Shown: in pieces, positions 50,821 to 64,000 of the stretch
Layout: every line of letters begins with the position of its first letter
How positions within the stretch are numbered: position 1 is the stretch's first letter
Assembly: GCA_026129095.1 (NCBI GenBank)
Contig: JAHCIT010000003.1
Coordinates: 186,001 to 250,000 of the forward strand
Direction: 5' to 3'
Source of the DNA: Deltaproteobacteria bacterium
GTDB taxonomy: Bacteria; JAGRBM01; JAHCIT01
DNA length: 64,000 nucleotides
Notes under the pieces: generated by a model
The model's database searches: none
Seen by the model: the letters and a program-made list of their open reading frames with translations, nothing else
Told to the model about the DNA's origin: nothing
Program-made: the position numbers and the translations under genes

Positions 50821-51924
50821 ATGCCATCCGCACTCGCCCTCGGTTTCAAGGACCGGGACTTCCGCTCGAATCCGCTCACCCGCGAAGAAGCCATCGAAGC
50901 CATCGGCTTCGAAAGACCGGAAGACCTGGACCTGCTCTATGCCGCATCCAGCCGGGTCCGGGCCGAGATGTTCGGCAAGGACGTTTCCGTTTGTACCATC
51001 GTCAATGCCAAGTCGGGCAACTGCGCCGAGGACTGTGGCTTCTGCGCCCAGAGTGCCTACTACCAGAAGGACACTGGCGTCACGACCTACCCGCTCATGT
51101 CGGCAGACGACATCGTGAATGTGGCATGGGAACGGAAGGCAATCGGCGGACGGGAGTTTTCCATCGTCACCGCCGGAACCGGTATGTACCGGCCGGAGGA
51201 AGTGGACACGCTCGTCGATGCCGTTCGCCGCGTGAACGACGAGGTGGGCATGGAGAGCTGTGCCTCGCTCGGCCTGATGAAGCGGGAAGACCTGTTGCGC
51301 CTCAAGGAGGCCGGCATGGTCCACTTCCATCACAACCTGGAAACGGCCCGGAGCCACTTTCCGAACATCGTCACGACCCACAGCTTCGACGACGAGGTGA
51401 ACTCGGTGCGGATGGCCAAGGAACTGGGATTTGAAGTCTGCTGCGGCGGCATCTTCGGCATGGGTGAAAACCGCGAACAGCGCGTCGAACTGATGGAGAC
51501 GCTGCGTGACCTCGACGTCGATTCGATCCCCATCAACTTCCTGAACCCCATCAAGGGGACCAGGCTCGGCCACCTGAAGCCGATGGAGGCCGAGGAGGCG
51601 CTCAAGGTGATTGCTGTCATGCGTCTCATGATGCCCGGCACGCCCAGCTTCGTATGCGGCGGCCGCGAAGTGACTCTGGGCAACCGGCAGGACGAGATAT
51701 TCAGGGCAGGCGCTTCCGGGCTCATGATGGGGAACTACCTCACTACTTCTAACCGCAACTATCTCCACGACCGGGAGATGGTCGCCGCGCAAGGACTTCG
51801 CATCAAGGATGACGGCTGCCATGTGAAGACCAAGCAGCCCATGGAAGTGAAAACACCGGCGACGGAAGTCAGGCAGGCAGTCCCGAGCCAGAAGCTTTAC
51901 CAGATCGATCGGCCCGCGAACTGA
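50821..51924 (+). CDS. bioB: Biotin synthase
   Basis: CAEDCGFCAQS, HHNLET, CCGGIFGMGE, PINFL, GNYLTT. Confidence 0.96.
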   Translation: MPSALALGFKDRDFRSNPLTREEAIEAIGFERPEDLDLLYAASSRVRAEMFGKDVSVCTIVNAKSGNCAEDCGFCAQSAYYQKDTGVTTYPLMSADDIVNVAWERKAIGGREFSIVTAGTGMYRPEEVDTLVDAVRRVNDEVGMESCASLGLMKREDLLRLKEAGMVHFHHNLETARSHFPNIVTTHSFDDEVNSVRMAKELGFEVCCGGIFGMGENREQRVELMETLRDLDVDSIPINFLNPIKGTRLGHLKPMEAEEALKVIAVMRLMMPGTPSFVCGGREVTLGNRQDEIFRAGASGLMMGNYLTTSNRNYLHDREMVAAQGLRIKDDGCHVKTKQPMEVKTPATEVRQAVPSQKLYQIDRPAN

Positions 51925-51950
51925 AGGCACAGCCTGAAAACATCCCGCCA

Positions 51951-53168
51951 ATGACACCACCCCGGCCCACGCAGATACCGGCTGAAAAGACCGGCTCGTT
52001 CGAGGACTACCTCGAAACAGAACTGGATCGCGTCCGTGCCGAAAACCGCTGGCGGTTTTTCCGCCCGGTGACGGGATCTCAGGGACCCACTGTCCAGGCT
52101 GCCGGCCGCGAACTGCTGATGCTGGCATCGAATAACTACCTGGGGCTCGCCGGCGATCCACGGATTTCGGAGGCGATCGGCGAAGCCCTGCGCACCGATG
52201 GCACGGGTTCCGGCGCCTCGCGCCACATCAGCGGCTCAATGGACCGGCATCAGGAGCTGGAAGAACGGCTTGCCGCCTTCAAGGGGACCGAAGCCGCCGT
52301 TCTCTACAACACCGGCTACATGGCGAATGTGGGCATCATCTCCTCGCTGCTGGGCCCCGGTGATGCCGTCTTTTCCGACGAGCTCAACCATGCATCCATC
52401 ATCGACGGCTGCCGGCTCTCCGGCGCGGAGAAGGAGATTTACCGCCACTCCGACATGAATGACCTGGAACGGCGGCTGAAAAAAACCGCCGCACGGCACA
52501 AGCTGATCGTGACCGACGCCGTCTTTTCGATGGATGGCGATGTGGCGAAACTGCGGGAAATCGCCGATCTCTCCCGGCGCTACGGCGCGTGGACGATGGT
52601 TGACGAGGCCCATGCGACCGGTGTTTTCGGCCGCTCCGGCCGGGGCCTGGTGGATCATCTGGGGCTGACGGGCAAAATCGACATCGTGATGGGGACACTG
52701 GGCAAGTCTCTGGGCGGATTCGGCGCCTTCGCCGCCGGAAGCCGCAGGCTCATCGATTTCCTCATCAACAAGTCACGGATGCTGATCTTCACGACAGCCC
52801 TGCCGCCAGCGGTCTGCGCGGGGGTGATCCGGGCGCTCGACATCCTCGAATCCGAGCCGGACCGGATCGCCCGGCTTCACCGGCTTTCGGCCCGCTACCG
52901 GGACCGGCTCGTGTCGGCGGGGCTGGACATCTGCGGTTCGGTAACTCCGATCGTGCCGGTCAGGATCGGCCCCGAGGACCGGACGCTCGCCATCGCCCAG
53001 GATCTCTGGAACGAGGGTTTCTTTTCCATCGCCATACGTCCGCCGACCGTCCCGCCCGGAACCTGCCGGATCCGCACGACCGTGATGGCGACCCATACGG
53101 AAGCCGATCTGGACCGCGCCGCCGCTGCGATTGCCACGGCCTGCCAGCGGCATGGAGTGATCCACTGA
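51951..53168 (+). CDS. bioF: 8-amino-7-oxononanoate synthase
   Basis: SNNYLGL, NHASIIDG, FSMDGD, DEAHA, TLGKS, IRPPTVP. Confidence 0.95.
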   Translation: MTPPRPTQIPAEKTGSFEDYLETELDRVRAENRWRFFRPVTGSQGPTVQAAGRELLMLASNNYLGLAGDPRISEAIGEALRTDGTGSGASRHISGSMDRHQELEERLAAFKGTEAAVLYNTGYMANVGIISSLLGPGDAVFSDELNHASIIDGCRLSGAEKEIYRHSDMNDLERRLKKTAARHKLIVTDAVFSMDGDVAKLREIADLSRRYGAWTMVDEAHATGVFGRSGRGLVDHLGLTGKIDIVMGTLGKSLGGFGAFAAGSRRLIDFLINKSRMLIFTTALPPAVCAGVIRALDILESEPDRIARLHRLSARYRDRLVSAGLDICGSVTPIVPVRIGPEDRTLAIAQDLWNEGFFSIAIRPPTVPPGTCRIRTTVMATHTEADLDRAAAAIATACQRHGVIH

Positions 53169-53171
53169 CCC

Positions 53172-54593
53172 ATGCCGGTGAGGAAACCGAAACGCCCCGC
53201 CCGGCGGCGTACCTCCCGGTCACGGGGATCACGGGCCCGCAGCCTCGCCGCCGCCGATCTCAGGAACATATGGCATCCCTTCACCCAGATGCAGGAATGG
53301 GAACTGGAAGAACCCCTGATCATCGAAAAGGGAAAAGGATCCTGGCTCTATGACGTCCGGGGAAACCGGTATCTGGATGGCGTTTCGTCACTCTGGTGCA
53401 CCGTTCATGGCCACAACCATCCAGTCCTGAACCGTGCCCTCAACCGGCAGGCGGCCCGGGTTTCCCACTCGACGATGCTGGGGCTGTCGAACGTCCCGGC
53501 GGTGGAACTGGCTGAAAAGCTGGCCGCTCTGGCACCCGATGGCCTCAGCCGGGTCTTCTACTCTGATTCAGGCTCGACGGCCGTCGAAATCGCCCTCAAG
53601 ATGGCTTTCCAGTATTCCCGCCTCACGCGGGGTGCCGGTACCCGCCGGACGAAGTTCCTCACCCTTACCAATGCCTATCACGGTGACACGATCGGATCGG
53701 TTTCGGCTGGCGGGATCGACCTCTTCCACGAAATATTCCGGCCACTCCTGTTTGAAACCCGGCGTATCCGGGGACCGTACAGGTTCCGGAATCCCTGGCC
53801 CGGAGAGGATCACGACCGCGCCGCCCTGCGCGAGCTGGAACAGGGCGTTGAAAAATACAGGGACGAACTGTGCGCGGTCGTGATCGAACCCCTGGTCCAG
53901 GGAGCCGCCGGCATGCTCCTCCAGCCCAAGGGCTACGTGAAACTGGTCCGCGAACTGTGCGACCGGCACGGGCTCCTTCTCATTCTGGATGAAGTGGCGA
54001 CCGGATTCGGCCGTACCGGAACCATGTTCGCCTGCGAGCAGGAGAACGTCAGTCCCGATTTCCTGTGCCTCGCCAAGGGACTGACCGGCGGATACCTCCC
54101 GGTCGCCGCAACACTTACCACCGAAAAGGTCTACGATGCCTTCAAGGGACGGTTCGAGGAGTTCAAGAGCTTCTTTCACGGCCACACCTATACAGGCAAT
54201 CCGCTCGGCTGCGCGGTGGCCTGCGCCTCCATTGATTTGTTCCGGACGGAAAAGACGCTGGAAAGACTCCAGCCCAAGATCGCCCAGCTCCGTAGACGTT
54301 TGGAATCCATCACATCCCATTCCCACGTGGGCGACATCCGTCAGTGCGGGTTCATGGCCGGTATCGAACTCATCCCGGACCGGAATCGTCCACAATTGGA
54401 GTACCCACCGGAGCTCCGGACCGGACATCGGGTCACCAGATTCGCCCGTAGCTGTGGCGTCATTACCCGGCCGCTCGGCAATACGCTGATTTTCATGCCG
54501 CCACTGTCGATCACGCCGAAAGAACTGGATAGACTCTGCGACGTTGTGTTCGATGGACTTGAGCACGTTACCGGAGAGATTGCCAGGCAGTGA
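53172..54593 (+). CDS. bioA: DAPA aminotransferase
   Basis: WHPFTQM, SGSTAVEIALKMA, YHGDT, DEVATGFGRTG, KGLTGGY, HGHTYTGN. Confidence 0.96.
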   Translation: MPVRKPKRPARRRTSRSRGSRARSLAAADLRNIWHPFTQMQEWELEEPLIIEKGKGSWLYDVRGNRYLDGVSSLWCTVHGHNHPVLNRALNRQAARVSHSTMLGLSNVPAVELAEKLAALAPDGLSRVFYSDSGSTAVEIALKMAFQYSRLTRGAGTRRTKFLTLTNAYHGDTIGSVSAGGIDLFHEIFRPLLFETRRIRGPYRFRNPWPGEDHDRAALRELEQGVEKYRDELCAVVIEPLVQGAAGMLLQPKGYVKLVRELCDRHGLLLILDEVATGFGRTGTMFACEQENVSPDFLCLAKGLTGGYLPVAATLTTEKVYDAFKGRFEEFKSFFHGHTYTGNPLGCAVACASIDLFRTEKTLERLQPKIAQLRRRLESITSHSHVGDIRQCGFMAGIELIPDRNRPQLEYPPELRTGHRVTRFARSCGVITRPLGNTLIFMPPLSITPKELDRLCDVVFDGLEHVTGEIARQ

Positions 54594-55321
54594 GCGTGCA
54601 AACCTACTTCGTCACCGGGACTGATACAGGCGTTGGCAAGACATTCGTCACCTGCGGACTCATCTGGTACCTGCGGGATCAGGGCCTCAGTGTCGGCGCC
54701 CTGAAGCCGGTGGAAACGGGCTGCCAGGAACACCGGGGAGCACTGCTGGCCAACGACGCCTCGCTGCTGTCCGATGCCATCAAGTACAGCGGGCCGATCG
54801 ACGACATCTGTCCCTACCGGTTCCGGCTTCCACTCTCTCCTGAGGCTGCGGCCGGATCAGAGGGAGTCAGGATCGATCTTAACCGCATACTTGATGCCCG
54901 GGCCCGCATGGGCGAGGGGAAAAAGGTAGTGATGGTGGAAGGGGCCGGCGGCCTGCTGGTCCCCCTCACCGACAAGCTGAATACGGCCGATCTTATCAGC
55001 CGGCTCAAGGCAAAAGTAATTCTGGTCGTGGCTTCAAAGATCGGCTGTATCAACCACACGCTGCTGACTCTGGAAGCCCTGGATCGCCGGGGGATCAAGA
55101 CGGCGGGCATCATACTCAACCGGGTCAGTGCGGCCGATCCGGCCGCTGATCCGTCTCTGGAAACGAATCTGGAAGATGTCCGCCGCCGGACCAAGATTCC
55201 GGTACTGGGCGAAATTCCGCACCTCAGTGGTGATCTTGGTGCCTACCGCCGCCAGCACTATCTGGAAACTGTCCGCAAGGCACTGGACGAAAGCGCCCTC
55301 AAGCGTATATTCGGACTCTGA
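54590..55321 (+). CDS. bioD: Dethiobiotin synthetase
   Basis: TGTDTGVGKT, KPVETG, EGAGG, GCINH. Confidence 0.96.
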   Translation: MSVQTYFVTGTDTGVGKTFVTCGLIWYLRDQGLSVGALKPVETGCQEHRGALLANDASLLSDAIKYSGPIDDICPYRFRLPLSPEAAAGSEGVRIDLNRILDARARMGEGKKVVMVEGAGGLLVPLTDKLNTADLISRLKAKVILVVASKIGCINHTLLTLEALDRRGIKTAGIILNRVSAADPAADPSLETNLEDVRRRTKIPVLGEIPHLSGDLGAYRRQHYLETVRKALDESALKRIFGL

Positions 55322-57478: not shown

Positions 57479-58084
57479 ATGGCGGGCAAGGAATACCGGG
57501 ACCACCCCGACCGAATCAAATGGGATTCGAAATACGGATCGAACCCTGATCTGTTCGGCCGCGGGCCGTCGGACTGGCTGCTCCACTGCTATCCAACGAT
57601 CGAAAGGCTCATTAGCCTTCCAGCCACTGCCCTCGACATCGGCGCCGGACCGGGCCGGAACTCACTGGCCCTCGCCCGCCGCGGTTTCGACGTCACAGCG
57701 CTGGACATCTCCGGTGTCGCACTGGAGCGTCTCGGGAAGCTCGCAGAGGCAGAGCGGCTGGACATCACGACCGTGAGAACGAGTGCCTACGACTGGGACT
57801 GGGCGCCGGCTGTGTTCAGCCTTGTCATCGATTTCTTTTATCTGGAGCGGCCCCTCATTCCGAAGATCGCCGGGACCGTGGTTCCCGGCGGGCTCATCTG
57901 CTTTGAGACCTACACAACCGGCCAGCTTGATGCACCCGTTAGCCCCAAATGTCCGCGGGAGTTCCTGCTGGAACCGGGAGAACTCCCCACACTTTTCGAT
58001 GGCTTCGAAACCCTGGAAAGCCGTGAGGGGCCGCTACCGGACGGTCGCGTCACCGCCGCCTGGCTGGGCCGGAGAGTCCGATAA
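57479..58084 (+). CDS. Class I SAM methyltransferase (TehB-like)
   Basis: KWD..Y, LDIGAGPGRNS, DIS, FLLEPGEL. Confidence 0.85.
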   Translation: MAGKEYRDHPDRIKWDSKYGSNPDLFGRGPSDWLLHCYPTIERLISLPATALDIGAGPGRNSLALARRGFDVTALDISGVALERLGKLAEAERLDITTVRTSAYDWDWAPAVFSLVIDFFYLERPLIPKIAGTVVPGGLICFETYTTGQLDAPVSPKCPREFLLEPGELPTLFDGFETLESREGPLPDGRVTAAWLGRRVR

Positions 58085-59270
58085 TCCGCCGCCCGACTGC
58101 CTTGATGGCCTTTTTCGCTGTTTCAGCGGCCGTCAGGTTTTCATAGTCGTTGCGCCCAGCCACCCAGGCGAACACCTTTTCCAGTATCCGGGGTTCATAA
58201 AAACCCGCGGCAAGTCCAACCGGGTGCAGCGGCGAATACAGCATGTCGGCAAAAAACCGGTTGCGCTTCAGTTCGATTCCAAGCCCGGAGCTGTTCACTG
58301 CCCGTTCATATCCCCGCAGGGTCACGTCCCCGTCCTGTCCCAGCTTCCGGCAAATATGCTCCGCCGCCAGTTGTCCCCACCAGATCGCCTGGCGGATCCC
58401 TTCGGCCACCAGCGGATCAGAACCGGCGGCATCACCCACCAGCAGAACTCCGGGCGCCGAATACCGGGAGTGTCCGGCGGCAAACTCCCGGAAAGACCAG
58501 TGGTGGACCTGTTTTGGCGACACGTCATATCCATACCGGCTGGCCGTCCGAATGCAGTAGTCCCGAAGCGGGACCGGAGAACGCCCATGCCGCGAATACA
58601 CGCCGATCTTGGCCACAGGGTTTCCGGCAGTGTCACGTTCGGGGAACAGCCACGAGTAGCCGTTCACGCCGTCATGGATGGCCGTAAAATCGAACCGAAG
58701 GGTGTCTGGCGGAGCGGCTTTCAGTGGGGCTTCCACCTGCACAAGCTGGGAAAGCCCCCGTGATACCGGCTCAACAAACGTCCGCCGCACGATACTCCCC
58801 ACACCGTCTGCCCCAACGATCACTTTCGCCTGGATTGTGGCACCGGACGTGGTTTCGATACTGAACCCTCCCGGCTTCCCGGATATGGCCCTGACGGGCG
58901 AGTGCTCCCTGATGTCGATGCCATGCCCGCGGGCCGAACGGACAAGCCAGTGGTCCAGGGCGGACCGTTCGAACACGAACACCATCTCCGGCTCGCTGAG
59001 CGTGATCTGCCGTTGCCGGAATCGTATATCGACATGCCCGGCCCGGACGGCCTCGACCGGTGCCTTGTGCAGGTCAAGCCCGAGCGCATTGAAGAGAGGG
59101 ACCGCACGGCCCAAAACACCGCCGCCGCATAGCTTGGGCCGGGGGTGAACCGACTTTTCAAGAACAACGACGGAAAGCTGTGGCGCGAGCCGCTTGAGCG
59201 AGATCGCCGTGGACATGCCGGCAGGACCGCTTCCCACCACGGCGACATCCACGCCCTGGGCGGTGGTCAC
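58050..59270 (-). CDS. Geranylgeranyl reductase family FAD oxidoreductase
   Basis: GSGPAG, KLCGGG, GADG, GYSWLFP, VGDAAG.DP..AEGI. Confidence 0.85.
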   Translation of the reverse strand: MTTAQGVDVAVVGSGPAGMSTAISLKRLAPQLSVVVLEKSVHPRPKLCGGGVLGRAVPLFNALGLDLHKAPVEAVRAGHVDIRFRQRQITLSEPEMVFVFERSALDHWLVRSARGHGIDIREHSPVRAISGKPGGFSIETTSGATIQAKVIVGADGVGSIVRRTFVEPVSRGLSQLVQVEAPLKAAPPDTLRFDFTAIHDGVNGYSWLFPERDTAGNPVAKIGVYSRHGRSPVPLRDYCIRTASRYGYDVSPKQVHHWSFREFAAGHSRYSAPGVLLVGDAAGSDPLVAEGIRQAIWWGQLAAEHICRKLGQDGDVTLRGYERAVNSSGLGIELKRNRFFADMLYSPLHPVGLAAGFYEPRILEKVFAWVAGRNDYENLTAAETAKKAIKAVGRRIIGLSGPARRR

Positions 59271-60436
59271 CCGCTGCTCCGGATCCGCTGCCGGGCATGC
59301 AAAACCAGCAGTTCCGGAATGGACTGGATCGGGAGTATTTCATCCACGACGCCAGCCTCGATAGCCGACTTGGGCATCCCGTAGACGACGCACGTTTCCC
59401 GGTTTTGTGCGACGTTGTAACCGCCGGCTTCCCGGATCCGTTTCATCCCCCATGTTCCATCGCTTCCCATGCCGGTCAGCACGACGCCGATGGCTGCCGG
59501 ACCGAACACTTCGGCCACTGTGGAAAAAAGCACATCCGCCGATGGCTTGAGGAGCGATTCCGCCGGATTTTCGGTCAGACGGATGCAGAACTGGTTCGGC
59601 CGGTCCTGCAAGGGGGCCACAATCGTATGAATACCTCCGGGAGCGACATAGGCGACACCCGGCCTCAGCGGCATGCCGTCTTCCGCTTCACGGACCATGA
59701 GCGGGACCGTCCGGTCCAGATCCGCCGCAAATGACCGGGTGAACTTGGCCGGCATGTGCTGGACAATGACCACCGGAAGTTCAAAATCTTCTGGCAGTCC
59801 GCCCAGGAGATGCTGAAGCGCCTGAACACCGCCCGTCGAAGACCCGACCGCGACGATTTTTACCGGCGGAAATTCTGCCGGTACCGGCCGGATTCCACTC
59901 GCTGGCAGCACCGGCGGCCGCGATGATGCGGGGACCGGTCCCGAAACCGAGATCGTCCCCGGTGTGGCCGGTTTGTACCGCCGGGGCTCGACGGTACGTT
60001 CCAGCAGGGGTCGGGGCTGTGCTCGTGCGGCGATCTTGACCTTCCTGATCAACGCTTCCGAAATGGTGTGGATATCTACGGATACGACCCCAGACGGCTT
60101 TTCGATGAAATCGACGGCCCCAAGCCGAAGGGCCTCAACCGTCACTGCCGCGCCCTGCGACGTATAGGCGCTCACCATCAGGACCGGTACCGGATGGACG
60201 CGCATGATCTGTTCCAGCGTCTCGATGCCGGACATGCCCTCCATTTCGATATCGAGAGTAACGACGTCCGGCTCCAGGTTCCTGACCAGCTCAACCGCCT
60301 CGTAACCGTCGCGGGCCGTGGCGATTACCTGTATTCCTGGATCCCGTGAGATCAGGTTGGATATGGCCCGGCGCATGAAATTGGAATCATCGACGATGAT
60401 GACCTTGATCGGCTCATTCGATGGCGCTGACCCCAT
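59267..60436 (-). CDS. cheB: Chemotaxis methylesterase with receiver domain
   Basis: REC VDD/LDIEM/KP; GSSTGG, VQHMP, LTGMGSDG, VYGMP. Confidence 0.96.
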   Translation of the reverse strand: MGSAPSNEPIKVIIVDDSNFMRRAISNLISRDPGIQVIATARDGYEAVELVRNLEPDVVTLDIEMEGMSGIETLEQIMRVHPVPVLMVSAYTSQGAAVTVEALRLGAVDFIEKPSGVVSVDIHTISEALIRKVKIAARAQPRPLLERTVEPRRYKPATPGTISVSGPVPASSRPPVLPASGIRPVPAEFPPVKIVAVGSSTGGVQALQHLLGGLPEDFELPVVIVQHMPAKFTRSFAADLDRTVPLMVREAEDGMPLRPGVAYVAPGGIHTIVAPLQDRPNQFCIRLTENPAESLLKPSADVLFSTVAEVFGPAAIGVVLTGMGSDGTWGMKRIREAGGYNVAQNRETCVVYGMPKSAIEAGVVDEILPIQSIPELLVLHARQRIRSSG

Positions 60437-60472
60437 GCCGCATTCGCCCCGGTTACAATATCTGCCGCATCA

Positions 60473-61111
60473 TCAGTAGCCGCACCAGTCGAGCAGGTCA
60501 TCGAGTGAGCCCAGTTCCAGGGCATAGCCCGCACTTTCAACGAGCACCCCTTCCACATCGCCACGAACCAGCAGAAGCGCCTCGTCCGATGGAAGGCGGG
60601 AAAAATCGCTTTGGGACCAGCGGACATACCGGTTGCTCAGATCGGCATGGTCGGCGGCATAGACCCTCCCAAAGTCGTTGCGGTGTCCTTCCATCACCAG
60701 GCAGTGGGCATGGCCTTTCACGGCGAAAATGACGCGAAAATCGAGATCCTCACGGTCGGTTTCGCCAGCGATCTGCTTCTTGACGACCCAGGGAAGCAGC
60801 GAGAGATCAATCTTCCGGACTTCCGGTGCCTTGGCCGACGTCGCGGCCGGTTTCTCCTGAACGGGCTCAATCGGCGCCGGTTTTGCCTTTGAAATGGCCG
60901 GCTCATCGCTAAGCCAGCTTGCCGCGGCCGGCACGGCAATATCAGCCGGGTCCGGTTCCCGCGCATGAGATTTCGGTACAGGCGGCGCCACAGGCTTCCC
61001 GTCCTCCTTCGGCGGAGGAGGTGGCGGTGCCACCATCGGGGCCAGTCCGTGCGGTTCCTTCAGGTCGATTGACTCGGCGCCCTTGCCGAGCGTGCCGCGC
61101 TTTTTAGCCAT
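60473..61111 (-). CDS. Putative ParA partner: ParB-like N-peptide, Pro-rich linker, degenerate CheW-like C-domain
   Basis: GGAGG RBS; MAKKRGTLGKGAESI; PPPPPP linker; VIFAVKGHAHCL...LLVRGDVEGVLVES. Confidence 0.6.
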   Translation of the reverse strand: MAKKRGTLGKGAESIDLKEPHGLAPMVAPPPPPPKEDGKPVAPPVPKSHAREPDPADIAVPAAASWLSDEPAISKAKPAPIEPVQEKPAATSAKAPEVRKIDLSLLPWVVKKQIAGETDREDLDFRVIFAVKGHAHCLVMEGHRNDFGRVYAADHADLSNRYVRWSQSDFSRLPSDEALLLVRGDVEGVLVESAGYALELGSLDDLLDWCGY

Positions 61112-61857
61112 GTTTCCACCTCCAGGGCGAGCGCCCGGTAGTCCCGGGAACCATTTCCATTAGGGTCATACTCGAATATCGATAGCTCGTGCGATGGAGC
61201 CTCCTTGAGCCGCACAGTCGGACGGATAACCGACTGGAATACCCTGCCCGGGTAAGACTGTTCCAGCCGTTCGCGGACACTGGAGCTCAATCCGGCACGC
61301 CCATCATACTGGGTGAGAACGAAACCGAGGATCTCCAGCCGCGGGTTCACTTCCCGGACTTCCTCGATACGGGCCAAAAGCTGCGTGATGCCGATCAGCG
61401 AGTAGAACCCGATATCCACCGGCACGATCAGCCGGTCGGCCGCCGCCAGCGCATTCTGGGTGAGAAGCCCGGTGCTCGGGGGACAATCAATAACGATATA
61501 GTCATAGTCACCAGAAGCCCGGCCGAGCAGCGTGGAGAGGCGAAACAGAGACGTGTACCCGGGCGGCCATTCGCGCTCGGCTCGTGCGAGCTGGGGCGAA
61601 CCGCACAAAAGGTGGAGATTGCCCTTCTTGTAGAGGCCGTATTCGATGCCAAGATCGGGCCGCTCGAACAGGCTCCAGAGCGTTACCGGAGCTGCTGCAA
61701 CCGGTAGGCCGAATGAATAGCTGGCATTGGCCTGCGGATCGCAGTCGACGAGCAAGACCCGCGAGCCGTTCATAGCCCAGCAGGCGGCCAGACTTGTGGC
61801 GGTGGTTGTCTTGCCGCAACCGCCCTTCTGATTGGCTATAGCCAGCGTGATGCCCAC
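61060..61857 (-). CDS. ParA/Soj family ATPase within chemotaxis operon
   Basis: NQKGGCGKTTT, VDCDPQAN, IDCPP, YDGR, VRLKEAPS. Confidence 0.92.
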   Translation of the reverse strand: MGITLAIANQKGGCGKTTTATSLAACWAMNGSRVLLVDCDPQANASYSFGLPVAAAPVTLWSLFERPDLGIEYGLYKKGNLHLLCGSPQLARAEREWPPGYTSLFRLSTLLGRASGDYDYIVIDCPPSTGLLTQNALAAADRLIVPVDIGFYSLIGITQLLARIEEVREVNPRLEILGFVLTQYDGRAGLSSSVRERLEQSYPGRVFQSVIRPTVRLKEAPSHELSIFEYDPNGNGSRDYRALALEVETWLKSAARSARAPSQST

Positions 61858-61902: not shown

Positions 61903-63498
61903 CTACAGCCGGAAGTCGCCGACGACCTTTCTCAGGTGTTCAGCCAGATCGAACAGGTTCTGAACCGTATTGGACTGCTCCTCGGCCTGATTGGAGACAT
62001 CCTTCGCCGAGCGGGATATCTGGTCCACAGCATTGGCCACCTCATCGGAAACACTGCTCTGTTGCCGTGCGGCATCTGCCATGGCGTTAATCATTTCTGA
62101 CACGTTCGTATTGGCACCGATGATTTCATGGAGCACCGCTTCCGTGCGCCCGGCCATCTCGGTTCCCTTGGTGACTTCCTTGGTAGCTTCCTGCATCACT
62201 GTCACGGCCCGGTCCGTATCCCGAAGTATCTCCTCGATGATGGCAGTAATCTGTGCCGTCGAATCGGTGGATTTTTCCGCAAGTTTTCGTACTTCGCTGG
62301 CGACCACTTCGAAGCCGCGCCCATGCTCGCCGGCGCGGGCGGCTTCGATGGCGGCATTCAGGGCCAGAAGGTTGGTCTGCGAGGATATTTCCTTGATGAC
62401 ATCGATGATCTGACCGATCTGCTGCGACCGCTCGCCCAGCGCACGGATGCTTTCGGCCGAACTGGTAACAATCTGTTCGACACGGGTGATGCCCTGGCGT
62501 GTTTCCTGAACCGCCTGGCCTCCACGGGAAGCGGAGCTGGAAGCCTTGGCACTGACTTCCTGCGAGCGGCTGGCATTCTCCGAGACAAGCTGGACCGAGG
62601 AGGCCATTTCCTCGATGGCGACGGCCATCTCCTTGGTCTTGAGGAACTGGTTCTCCGATGCCTGGGCCACGGCCCGCATGCCGACCAGGAACTGGTTCGC
62701 GGCCTGCGCCAGTTCATCGGTCTTGCGGTTCAGCCCGGAAAACACGTTCTTCAGGTTGACCGACATCTTGTCGAATGAATCGGTCAGTTCCCGGAGTTCC
62801 TGTATTTCCAGTGCCGAATTGTACTGGACTTTCTGGCGCAGATCACCATTCGATATGTTGTTGGCAGCCTGGGAAAGCTCCCGGATCGGCTGGGCAATCA
62901 GGGCCTGAAGCCCCATGATTACCAGAACAACCAGAACGACTCCTGCGAATGCCATGCCCAGAAACACCTTGTTCATGGCACCGGATACCTGCTCTTCGAC
63001 GATCTCCGCCGGCATGCCAAGCATCACAACACCGGTCGCGCTCTGGAGCACCTGGTCCATGATTGGCGCGGTCACGACGTTGAATACGCCCTGCCCCTGC
63101 ACCGGAATGGTGAACTTCTCCGGTTTTTCGATCCGTTCACCAAGTCTTGCGGTCTGTGCGAAATCATCTGCATGCGTGACAAGCTCGCCACCGCGGTAAA
63201 GCACCTTTCCCTGTATGTCGGCGACCAGCCAGATCTTGACCTCGCTGTGCTCTGCCACGATAGGCGGCAGTATCTGGTCGATCTGCTGGAGATCACCCAG
63301 CGTCAGGAGCCCCAGTTTCAGCAAACCTTCGACATTCAGCTTGGCATTGGTCACGAGAACCTGAATCTTCTCGAAATAACGGTCTTCAAGCGTTTGAGTC
63401 ACCGAATTGCGGACAACGAGAAAGCCCACCAGCGACATGAACATGATGACGATGGGCGGTCCGATCAGTACATATCCGATTCGAAAAGAGCGTTTCAC
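61903..63498 (-). CDS. Methyl-accepting chemotaxis protein
   Basis: Two TM segments, periplasmic domain, [27 protein letters not shown]. Confidence 0.96.
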
Positions 63499-63502
63499 GT
63501 CT

Positions 63503-64000
63503 TCACACCACCCGTTTGAACGATTTCACAAGTTTGCCCTCATCAAGCACCCTGACTTCCCGGTCGGCAAGTTCGAGTTGCAGTTCCCTGCCGGCATAGG
63601 TCTTGCCAACGAAAAAGGAACGATCCTCGGCCGTAATCCTGCCGTTGTCCGTTACCGTGGCTTTCAGGTTCCGGGCCGGACCTGCCGGACGCGGCGCCGG
63701 CGTCCTGGGTGCAACAGCCGGCTTTGCAGGCGAAGTGGCAACTGCAGATGCCCCCGACGGAGATGCAGATGGAGCAGCCTTTGCTGGCACCTCGGCGCTC
63801 GATTCACTCAGAACATCTTTCTCTTGCGGCGAGAATATCCGGTCCAGGTTCAGGATTGTGATCAGGCGACTGGCGATCTCGCAGACGCCTTCAAGAAAAT
63901 CGGCCTCCAGCCCCGCGACAAGCGCCGGAGGCGGCTCAATATGGTCTGCATTGATCTTGATAACCTCGAACACCATATCGACTTCGATGCCAACGAAGAA
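63503..64000 (-). CDS. cheW: CheW (3' part) with Pro/Ala linker and extra C-terminal beta domain
   Basis: Frame open to window edge: [14 protein letters not shown]...IEPPP...FLEGV...[11 protein letters not shown]. Confidence 0.85.

What the first reader, a model, noticed from the sequence alone, without database searches (positions are those of the whole stretch)
60473..61857. Candidate chemosensory-array positioning system: DNA-binding-type ParA plus a hybrid ParB-peptide/CheW-like adaptor
Seen: parA sits between MCP and cheB and overlaps a 212-aa gene with a strong RBS. That protein starts MAKKRGTLGKGAESI, has a Pro/Ala linker and ends in a domain with CheW-like strands (VIFAVKGHAHCL; LLVRGDVEGVLVES). 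ParA keeps YDGR and VR, equivalent to Soj DNA-binding R189/R218. Known: ParB/Spo0J N-peptides (K..LG.G...L) stimulate ParA ATPase; Rhodobacter PpfA/TlpT partitions cytoplasmic arrays over the nucleoid; Vibrio ParC/ParP uses a CheW-like AIF domain for polar anchoring. Inference: a hybrid arrangement in which an adaptor inserts into the CheW/CheA baseplate of a membrane array and drives a nucleoid-binding ParA. I do not know of this being described in deltaproteobacteria.
Basis: partly seen in the sequence, partly recalled or inferred. Interest (0 to 1): 0.72.

Follow-up and report, generated by a model that had tools for sequence, protein, structure and literature searches.

The report
Non-CheW ParA adaptor for chemosensory arrays

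Summary
parA (61060-61857) overlaps a real 212-aa gene, X, by 52 nt, between an MCP and cheB. The ten-gene order is the same in 6 of 6 genomes of the phylum; X was not found in 395 other genomes. ParA keeps its Walker A, catalytic residues and both Soj-type arginines.

The CheW-like claim fails. A confident model of X's C-domain (pLDDT 90) is a three-helix alpha/beta domain, unlike the operon's all-beta CheW, and 0 of 25 aligned relatives hit Pfam CheW.

The N-terminal ~30 aa is the most conserved part of the family, but only half matches ParB's motif, and ParA's ParB pocket is remodelled. Peptide-ParA docking got weak support (ipSAE 0.56, best control 0.01).

Best reading: a ParP-like adaptor (peptide, Pro linker, unassigned acidic domain) likely lets ParA position a membrane array in apparently non-flagellated, piliated cells. 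Its target in the array is unknown.

A surprise: the operon's CheW carries a transposase-type beta-barrel on a long linker. This scan has noted ParB-like peptides on non-ParB partners before, on other DNA.

Verdict: new variant of a known kind, interest 0.5.

The parts
61060..61857 (-). parA, Soj-like ParA/MinD ATPase, 265 aa (GTG start); deviant Walker A, catalytic D38/D40/Q42/N44, Soj-type R187 and R216; remodelled ParB pocket
   Evidence: PF13614 E 1e-44; Soj 1WCV E 1.7e-46, 8RAY E 9e-44; the six operon ParAs form their own clade, FastTree support 0.999, among 26 ParA paralogs of the phylum
60473..61111 (-). gene X, 212 aa, putative ParA partner/adaptor; overlaps parA by 52 nt
61119..61123 (-). 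GGAGG ribosome-binding site of X, inside parA's 3' end
   Evidence: an AGG-type site precedes the start in 6 of 6 genomes
61019..61111 (-). X residues 1-31: conserved basic/Gly-Leu-Gly N-terminal motif, partly ParB-like, predicted ParA-docking segment
60818..61018 (-). X residues 32-98: variable Pro/Ala-rich linker
   Evidence: 34% mean identity in family A, against 59% for the N-terminus and 53% for the C-domain
60476..60817 (-). X residues 99-212: acidic alpha/beta domain with no assigned family, not CheW-like
   Evidence: net charge -5 to -9 in 9 family-A proteins
61903..63498 (-). transmembrane MCP, 531 aa, HAMP plus signalling domain, 20 heptads after the tip (40H-type length; class label recalled)
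63503..64000 (-). 3' part of cheW (full gene runs to window position 64288): CheW domain, Pro/Ala linker and C-terminal barrel
63506..63679 (-). CheW C-terminal ~55-aa beta-barrel resembling the DDE-transposase C-terminal barrel (IstA, TnsB, MuA)
   Evidence: PF22483 in 5 of 6, best E 6.5e-5, below the curated cut-off; 8B4H Z 6.9, rmsd 2.1, 53 aligned
59267..60436 (-). cheB (REC plus methylesterase)
58050..59270 (-). FAD-dependent oxidoreductase, last conserved gene of the operon

Best explanation
X is encoded directly behind a Soj-like ParA in a conserved chemosensory operon and is likely that ParA's dedicated adaptor: its conserved N-terminal segment is predicted to dock on the ParA-ATP dimer and would trigger ParA's release from the nucleoid, while its acidic non-CheW C-domain, on a flexible linker, likely binds a still unidentified component of the operon's membrane receptor array, so that the array would be positioned and inherited. 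Shown: the genes, their order, conservation, the catalytic and arginine residues, and the non-CheW topology of the C-domain. Predicted with weak support: peptide-ParA docking. Inferred and untested: ATPase stimulation, nucleoid use, the array as cargo, and the C-domain's target. Rough odds per step: peptide binds this ParA 0.8; the cargo is the array 0.7; nucleoid ratchet rather than polar tether 0.65.
For: Gene coupling: X overlaps parA by 4-52 nt in 6 of 6 genomes, inside an identical operon. The genome's two other che clusters have no parA nearby. The N-terminal segment is the most conserved part: family B 90% identity against 60% for the C-domain (20 proteins); A versus B 38-42% against 22%. 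It resembles the N-terminus of the genome's own ParB. Complex prediction (ParA2 + 2 peptides + ATP/Mg): weak support, ipSAE 0.56, best of 3 controls 0.01, partner pLDDT at least 48, runs agree in at least 50% of contacts; the mark was reached by 116 of 157 solved and 2 of 215 mismatched pairs, but at 0.60 or under by only 18 of those 157 and by both mismatches. Known rule: A/D ATPase partners use a basic disordered N-terminus for the ATPase and the rest for cargo (10.1101/2022.06.09.495121 passages). ParP has the same three-part layout (PMC5706961). ParA keeps D58/D60/Q62/N64 equivalents and both arginines in 6 of 6. The C-domain is acidic, so it is unlikely to bind DNA cargo. Peptide and pocket both depart from the ParAB consensus, as expected if the pair is insulated from the intact chromosomal ParAB; that reading is inference.
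Against: The docking pass is weak and may come from likeness to ParA-ParB; 15 of the 21 ParA alignment rows were chromosomal ParAs or other paralogs. The basic residue needed for ATPase stimulation in M. xanthus ParB (R13; R13A nearly abolishes it, PMC12462528 passages) is K in 4 of the 6 genomes, Ala in 2, and Glu in 19 of 20 family-B proteins. ParA's Y81/E82/D110 site is also changed (that column is uncertain by one position). No evidence names the C-domain's target. The same domain occurs without any peptide, alone or fused to a REC domain (P0014-19, P0026-29), so it is not specific to ParA systems. The gene context of families B and C could not be seen. Six related genomes are not independent.
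Confidence: 0.45

Rival explanations
1. The same ParA-X pair positions the array, but as a Vibrio-style static tether to a polar landmark: X binds ParA without strongly stimulating it, and the nucleoid plays no part.
For: The activating basic residue is missing in 2 of 6 genomes and in family B. Vibrio ParC has DNA-binding residues but has not been seen on the nucleoid, and it places membrane arrays (PMC11407121). The MCP here is transmembrane.
Against: Both arginines are invariant in 6 of 6 operon ParAs while the partner pocket changed freely. No FliG was found in 5 of 5 genomes of 93-99% completeness, whereas ParC/ParP is described from polarly flagellated gamma-proteobacteria. HubP/FimV was not searched for.
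Confidence: 0.2
2. ParA-X is part of the pathway's output or regulation, for example placing pilus or motility polarity or being controlled by CheY-P, CheB or the HEAT protein, and does not move the array.
For: No flagellar FliG in 0 of 5 and PilT in 5 of 5 genomes, so the output is unknown. The C-domain occurs fused to a REC domain in P0014. Orphan ParAs affect gliding in Bdellovibrio (PMC7186360 title and passages).
Against: ParAs encoded in che operons that have been tested position the cluster: Vibrio, Rhodobacter, Halothiobacillus, P. putida.
Confidence: 0.18
3. X is not ParA's partner. The link from array to ParA or DNA is the transposase-type barrel tethered to CheW, and X's N-terminus binds something else.
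For: The CheW barrel is kept in 6 of 6 genomes and is neutral to basic (0 to +5). The IstA barrel contacts DNA and stimulates its partner ATPase (PMC11208146 passages). X's motif runs ~30 aa, far beyond ParB's 9, and ParA's canonical pocket is largely gone.
Against: X, not cheW, is coupled to parA. The peptide docked above controls (weak). The barrel is poorly conserved between the two families (23-29% identity). IstB is an AAA+ ATPase, not a ParA.
Confidence: 0.12
4. One reading: X's C-domain is a CheW/ParP-AIF-like domain that inserts into the CheW/CheA baseplate.
For: The operon position and ParP-like layout. The domain is rich in beta strands.
Against: The AF2 model (pLDDT 90, pTM 0.85) has three helices and five strands of 3 or more residues in ~115 aa, against the strand-dominated ~135-aa CheW domain modelled from the same operon. 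0 of 25 hit PF01584. X is absent from the 8 PF01584 matches in the genome, which include this operon's CheW and CheA-P5.
Confidence: 0.04

Closest known systems
Vibrio/Pseudomonas ParC-ParP (PMC5706961 passages; 10.1101/2025.10.27.684771 passages)
   Same: A ParA-like ATPase followed by a partner gene in a che operon; the partner has an N-terminal ATPase-binding part, a long Pro-rich linker and a C-terminal domain; transmembrane receptors.
   Different: ParP's C-domain is the CheW/SH3-like AIF; X's is an unrelated alpha/beta domain. The hosts lack detectable FliG. No polar landmark was tested. Whether this ParA belongs to the ParC clade was not tested (no ParC sequence in hand).
Rhodobacter PpfA-TlpT (reviews: PMC11407121 parts 1-2 of 5; PMC9178275 passages; primary paper not held)
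   Same: An orphan ParA in a che locus with Soj-type DNA-binding residues.
   Different: PpfA moves a cytoplasmic array, with the receptor TlpT named as partner; here the receptor spans the membrane and a separate adaptor gene carries the peptide.
Chromosomal ParA-ParB (M. xanthus, PMC12462528 passages; PDB 8RAY)
   Same: Soj-like ATPase (35-41% identity to the phylum's chromosomal ParAs) with an overlapping downstream gene that starts with a basic LG-x-G peptide.
   Different: X has no ParB core. Its peptide lacks the L15 and I19 hydrophobics and often R13. ParA keeps 1-2 of 6 pocket hydrophobics. A normal parAB exists elsewhere.
DDE-transposase C-terminal beta-barrel (IstA 8B4H, TnsB 8AA5/9BW1, MuA 4FCY; PMC11208146 passages)
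   Same: Fold of the ~55-aa domain tethered to this operon's CheW: Z 6.9, 6.1, 5.5 and 5.0; rmsd 2.1-3.4 over 53-57 residues; PF22483 in 5 of 6.
   Different: No DDE core or element nearby; single copy per genome, only on CheW, in 5 of 5 genomes searched. Z under 8 may mean only a common arrangement; function untested.

Membership tests
ParA/Soj (A/D) ATPase | Deviant Walker A KGGxxKT and Motif 2 catalytic residues | tested here: met
   KGGCGKT; D38, D40, Q42, N44 in 6 of 6
ParA/Soj (A/D) ATPase | C-terminal basic residues for non-specific DNA binding, no MinD membrane helix needed | tested here: met
   R187 and R216 align with Soj/8RAY arginines, 6 of 6; the B. subtilis numbering R189/R218 is recalled
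ParA/Soj (A/D) ATPase | ATP-dependent DNA binding and partner-stimulated ATPase | not testable with these tools
   needs biochemistry
ParP (ParC partner) | Gene follows a parA-like gene in a che operon | tested here: met
   6 of 6 genomes
ParP (ParC partner) | N-terminal ATPase-binding segment plus Pro-rich linker | tested here: inconclusive
   Layout present and conserved; docking has weak support only, 0.56 against best control 0.01
ParP (ParC partner) | C-terminal domain matches the CheW-like family PF01584 | tested here: not met
   0 of 25 at E<=1; not among 8 genome matches that include this operon's CheW and CheA-P5
ParP (ParC partner) | Two-subdomain, strand-dominated SH3-like topology of ~135 aa | tested here: not met
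   Direct comparison of two models: X C-domain H-E-E-E-H-E-E-H, pLDDT 90, against the CheW domain's ten strands
ParP (ParC partner) | Structural match to solved CheW/CheA-P5 chains in a library search | tested here: inconclusive
   See Tried and rejected
ParP (ParC partner) | Partner ATPase in the ParC clade; HubP/FimV landmark present | not tested
   No ParC reference sequence was available; HubP/FimV was not searched
ParB ParA-binding motif | Four large hydrophobics at L11, L15, L18, I19 | tested here: not met
   L11 in 30 of 30; L15 is V in 3, otherwise small; L18 is I/L in 10 of 30; I19 is D/E in 30 of 30 (motif)
ParB ParA-binding motif | Central K/R (R13) | tested here: inconclusive
   K in the window protein and in 7 of 30 overall; A in 4; E in 19
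ParB | ParB_N CTPase core (PF02195) | tested here: not met
   No Pfam hit for X; the genome's PF02195 matches lie on other contigs
PpfA-TlpT | Cytoplasmic receptor as cargo and partner | tested here: not met
   The operon MCP has two hydrophobic segments and a HAMP domain; other receptors in the genome were not examined as partners

The most novel reading that the evidence does not exclude
A three-part positioning module built from new parts: a nucleoid-binding ParA with a remodelled pocket; an adaptor X with its own ~30-aa ParA-docking motif and a domain of possibly undescribed fold; and a CheW that has co-opted a transposase beta-barrel on a long tether as the handle that X (or DNA) grips. 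Together they would move a membrane-bound chemosensory array over the nucleoid in non-flagellated, pilus-bearing cells, and the same adaptor family would serve a second, unplaced lineage (family B).
Probability: 0.15. Interest if true: 0.78.

Novelty: new variant of a known kind. Interest (0 to 1): 0.5.

Why it matters
Array positioning by ParA-type ATPases is known from a few flagellated proteobacteria, with CheW-like ParP or the receptor TlpT as partner. This would add a third kind of partner, in a lineage with pili and no detectable flagellar switch. It also gives a natural peptide/pocket pair that diverged together from ParAB, which is useful for the open question of how several A/D ATPases in one cell avoid cross-talk; ParA, X(1-33) and the cell's own ParAB can all be tested in vitro. 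The limits: six uncultured genomes, no known C-domain target, and only weak computational support for docking.

Tried and rejected
Fold searches with the X C-domain model. Foldseek PDB: no match at E<=0.001. BFVD: none. VIA-align over 48,161 chains: best Z 3.9 (rmsd 2.6, 66 aligned), 0 chains at Z>=5, no CheW or CheA chain among the 50 listed. Second look at 994 chains: best Z 4.0, Hsp33. Positive control in the same library: the operon's CheW model retrieved five CheW/CheA chains at Z 12.0-21.7. A missing match shows neither that folds differ nor that the fold is new; the Hsp33 likeness is too weak to use.

hhalign of X against a CheW alignment gave probability 0.3-0.6%, but the CheA-P5 control also failed (0.1%), so I discard that test.

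No family for X: Pfam, NCBIfam, PDB sequences, PHROGs (1 unnamed hit in 25). The ESM Atlas gave no usable feature hit and TM<=0.43 on a poor model; two homologues were not held there.

Gene context for families B and C was not obtained: no plasmid match, the alignment was too diverse for the viral-contig scan, and 0 of 395 non-kin genomes matched (a loose first look with at most 8 candidates scored per genome).

RNA runs: 4 laid, all contigs. One 1,893-nt contig (78 differences) bridges cheB-X-parA at 59767-61656; the others are fragments with small shares. No silent-stretch control was laid, so transcription is not shown.

Promoter and terminator scans were at chance level.

The later half of the N-terminal motif resembles the end of a REC domain where MAFFT aligned it to P0014; the register is poor and I did not pursue it.

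X C-domain against the CheW barrel, MCP tip or CheA was not modelled; the one job went to ParA.

Literature searches that found no description of this system or of a CheW-transposase-barrel fusion: (listings only; Creative Commons PMC and bioRxiv). Roberts 2012, Ringgaard 2018 and Wuichet & Zhulin 2010 were not held, so the F-class of the operon is unassigned. Supplements were not read; ParC/ParP distribution tables there could bear on novelty.

Full report
What is there. The window is G000:C17:186001-250000. On the minus strand lie parA (61060-61857, 265 aa) and gene X (60473-61111, 212 aa), overlapping by 52 nt, with GGAGG 7 nt before X's ATG. Reading past the window's end gives the order HEAT-repeat protein, cheR, cheY, cheA (no P2 domain apparent), cheW, transmembrane MCP, parA, X, cheB, FAD oxidoreductase. 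X is coding: in 15 of 15 pairwise comparisons among six genomes, third-position changes dominate.

Distribution. The GTDB phylum holds six genomes in two families, and 6 of 6 carry one copy of X, each in the same ten-gene order as far as the contig reaches (one contig starts at cheA). X overlaps parA by 4-52 nt in all six. Two metagenome contigs show X-cheB-oxidoreductase and end before parA. None of 395 other genomes matched. These genomes are kin, not independent cases. One record is titled Bdellovibrionota bacterium; nothing else places the lineage. FliG_C was found in 0 of 5 and PilT in 5 of 5 genomes of 93-99% completeness. The genome has two other che clusters without parA and a normal parAB elsewhere.

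The X family. Profile searches gave three groups sharing the C-domain. Family A holds the orthologs above plus P0011-P0013. Family B holds 20 proteins of 161-187 aa from an unplaced lineage. Family C holds peptide-less small proteins and one REC fusion. No context was obtainable for B or C. The N-terminal segment is the most conserved region: 90% mean identity in B against 60% for the C-domain and 41% for the linker; 59/53/34% in ten A proteins; 38-42/22/12% between ten A and six B proteins. NCBI's annotation of one ortholog (P0008) starts after the peptide, but an upstream in-frame ATG restores it.

Is the peptide ParB-like? Partly. It resembles the start of the genome's own ParB, and a loose pattern matched 5 of 10,653 raw ORFs, including ParB and X. 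Against the M. xanthus motif (L11, R13, L15, L18, I19; PMC12462528 passages), 30 proteins give L11 in 30, K at R13 in 7 (A in 4, E in 19), V at L15 in 3, I/L at L18 in 10, and D/E at I19 in 30. I left out P0007, P0008, P0021, P0022, other cluster members and family C. Conservation runs on for about 20 residues beyond ParB's motif. I mapped the ParA pocket through the 8RAY alignment (the numbering offset is inferred from the D60A site). The six operon ParAs keep 1-2 of the 6 pocket hydrophobics; the six chromosomal ParAs keep 6 of 6. Both sides have diverged, which fits an insulated cognate pair but also weakens any argument from ParB likeness.

Docking. ParA(1-252) x2 with X(1-33) x2, ATP and Mg gave weak support: ipSAE 0.56 (0.54-0.61), best of 3 controls 0.01, partner pLDDT at least 48, runs agreeing in at least 50% of contacts. 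The mark was reached by 116 of 157 solved and 2 of 215 mismatched pairs, but at 0.60 or under by only 18 of those 157 and by both mismatches. The counts hold only roughly for this job, and the pass may reflect likeness to ParA-ParB, since 15 of 21 alignment rows were other ParAs. No interface was returned.

The ATPase. Its closest solved relatives are Soj (1WCV, E 1.7e-46) and M. xanthus ParA (8RAY, E 9e-44). Walker A, Motif 2 and both arginines are kept in 6 of 6. The six form one clade (support 0.999) apart from chromosomal ParA among 26 paralogs of the phylum (midpoint root, no outside references). The arginines make nucleoid binding likely but do not prove it: Vibrio ParC has such residues and has not been seen on the nucleoid (PMC11407121, parts 1-2 of 5 read).

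The C-domain is not CheW-like. AlphaFold2 on 25 aligned sequences gave pLDDT 90 and pTM 0.85, with elements H12-24, E31-37, E42-47, E56-60, H84-91, E92-99, E102-106, H109-115. The operon's CheW, modelled the same way, shows the usual strand-dominated domain. None of 25 sequences matched PF01584, and the genome-wide PF01584 search listed this operon's CheW and CheA-P5 but not X. Library fold searches and their control are under Tried and rejected. The domain is acidic (-5 to -9 in nine family-A proteins) and has motifs invariant within family A, which suggests a conserved protein partner; that is inference.

An unexpected part. The real CheW carries, after a ~45-aa low-confidence Pro/Ala linker, a ~55-aa barrel in 6 of 6 genomes. 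It matches PF22483 in 5 of 6, below the curated cut-off, and its best structural matches are transposase C-terminal barrels: IstA Z 6.9 (rmsd 2.1, 53 aligned), TnsB 6.1 and 5.5, MuA 5.0. It is single-copy in 5 of 5 genomes searched. The IstA barrel contacts DNA and stimulates the IstB ATPase (PMC11208146 passages). It could be X's handle, a DNA tether (compare FrzCD's basic tail, PMC5716589 abstract) or a ParA contact; none was tested. Its low conservation between families (23-29%) argues against it being the partner of X's most conserved surface.

How it most likely works. ParA-ATP dimers would coat the nucleoid. X would be held at the membrane array by its C-domain and reach out on its linker, docking its N-terminal segment on ParA and promoting hydrolysis and release, so that the array is spaced and inherited. 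This follows the general rule for A/D ATPase partners (10.1101/2022.06.09.495121 passages) and the ParP layout (PMC5706961 passages).

Known or new. It likely works like ParC-ParP, but X is not a ParP: the defining CheW-like domain was tested and not met. It is not a ParB either. ParAs in che operons are well known (passages read). Searches (listings only) showed no description of this partner; passages of PMC2577667 and PMC3945109 had no whole-word 'ParA'. Three key papers were not held, and supplements were not read. This scan has no note on this sequence or its relatives but has several on ParB-like peptides carried by non-ParB partners in other genomes (unchecked, not counted as support).

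Noticed in passing
window 63506-63679 (-); L001:5507-5680: CheW carries a tethered C-terminal barrel resembling the IstA/TnsB/MuA transposase beta-barrel, conserved in 6 of 6 genomes.
   Followed up: partly
proteins P0020, P0030-P0032, P0034-P0049 (no locus): Family B: 20 proteins from an unplaced lineage with a near-invariant 33-aa N-terminus and the same C-domain; gene context unseen.
   Followed up: partly
proteins P0014-P0019, P0026-P0029 (no locus): The same C-domain occurs alone or behind a REC domain, without the peptide; several carry conserved Cys/His.
   Followed up: no
G000:C20:249238-250377 (+); orthologs in L027, L028, L030, L031, L033: An orphan ParA with an N-terminal region of repeated Cys-x-x-Cys motifs, conserved across the phylum.
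   Followed up: no
G000:C17:109184-110188 (-); orthologs in L037-L041: Another orphan ParA that lacks the second Soj-type arginine, upstream of a gene that looks like a lytic transglycosylase by eye.
   Followed up: no
L044 (G000:C18:15000-31500): A second che cluster, apparently with its own HEAT-like gene and an AAA-type ATPase between cheA and cheW, and no parA.
   Followed up: no
window 58050-59270 (-): An FAD-dependent oxidoreductase closes the operon in 6 of 6 genomes and both metagenome contigs; a possible output enzyme.
   Followed up: no
G000:C12:43194-61253 (-): A 6,019-aa ORF lies directly upstream of chromosomal parAB.
   Followed up: no
L016:8409-9050 (+): The NCBI protein P0008 starts downstream of the conserved peptide; the gene likely starts at an earlier ATG.
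   Followed up: yes
window 50821-55321 (+): Four genes that read like an ordinary bioB-bioF-bioA-bioD biotin cluster by eye (not scanned).
   Followed up: no
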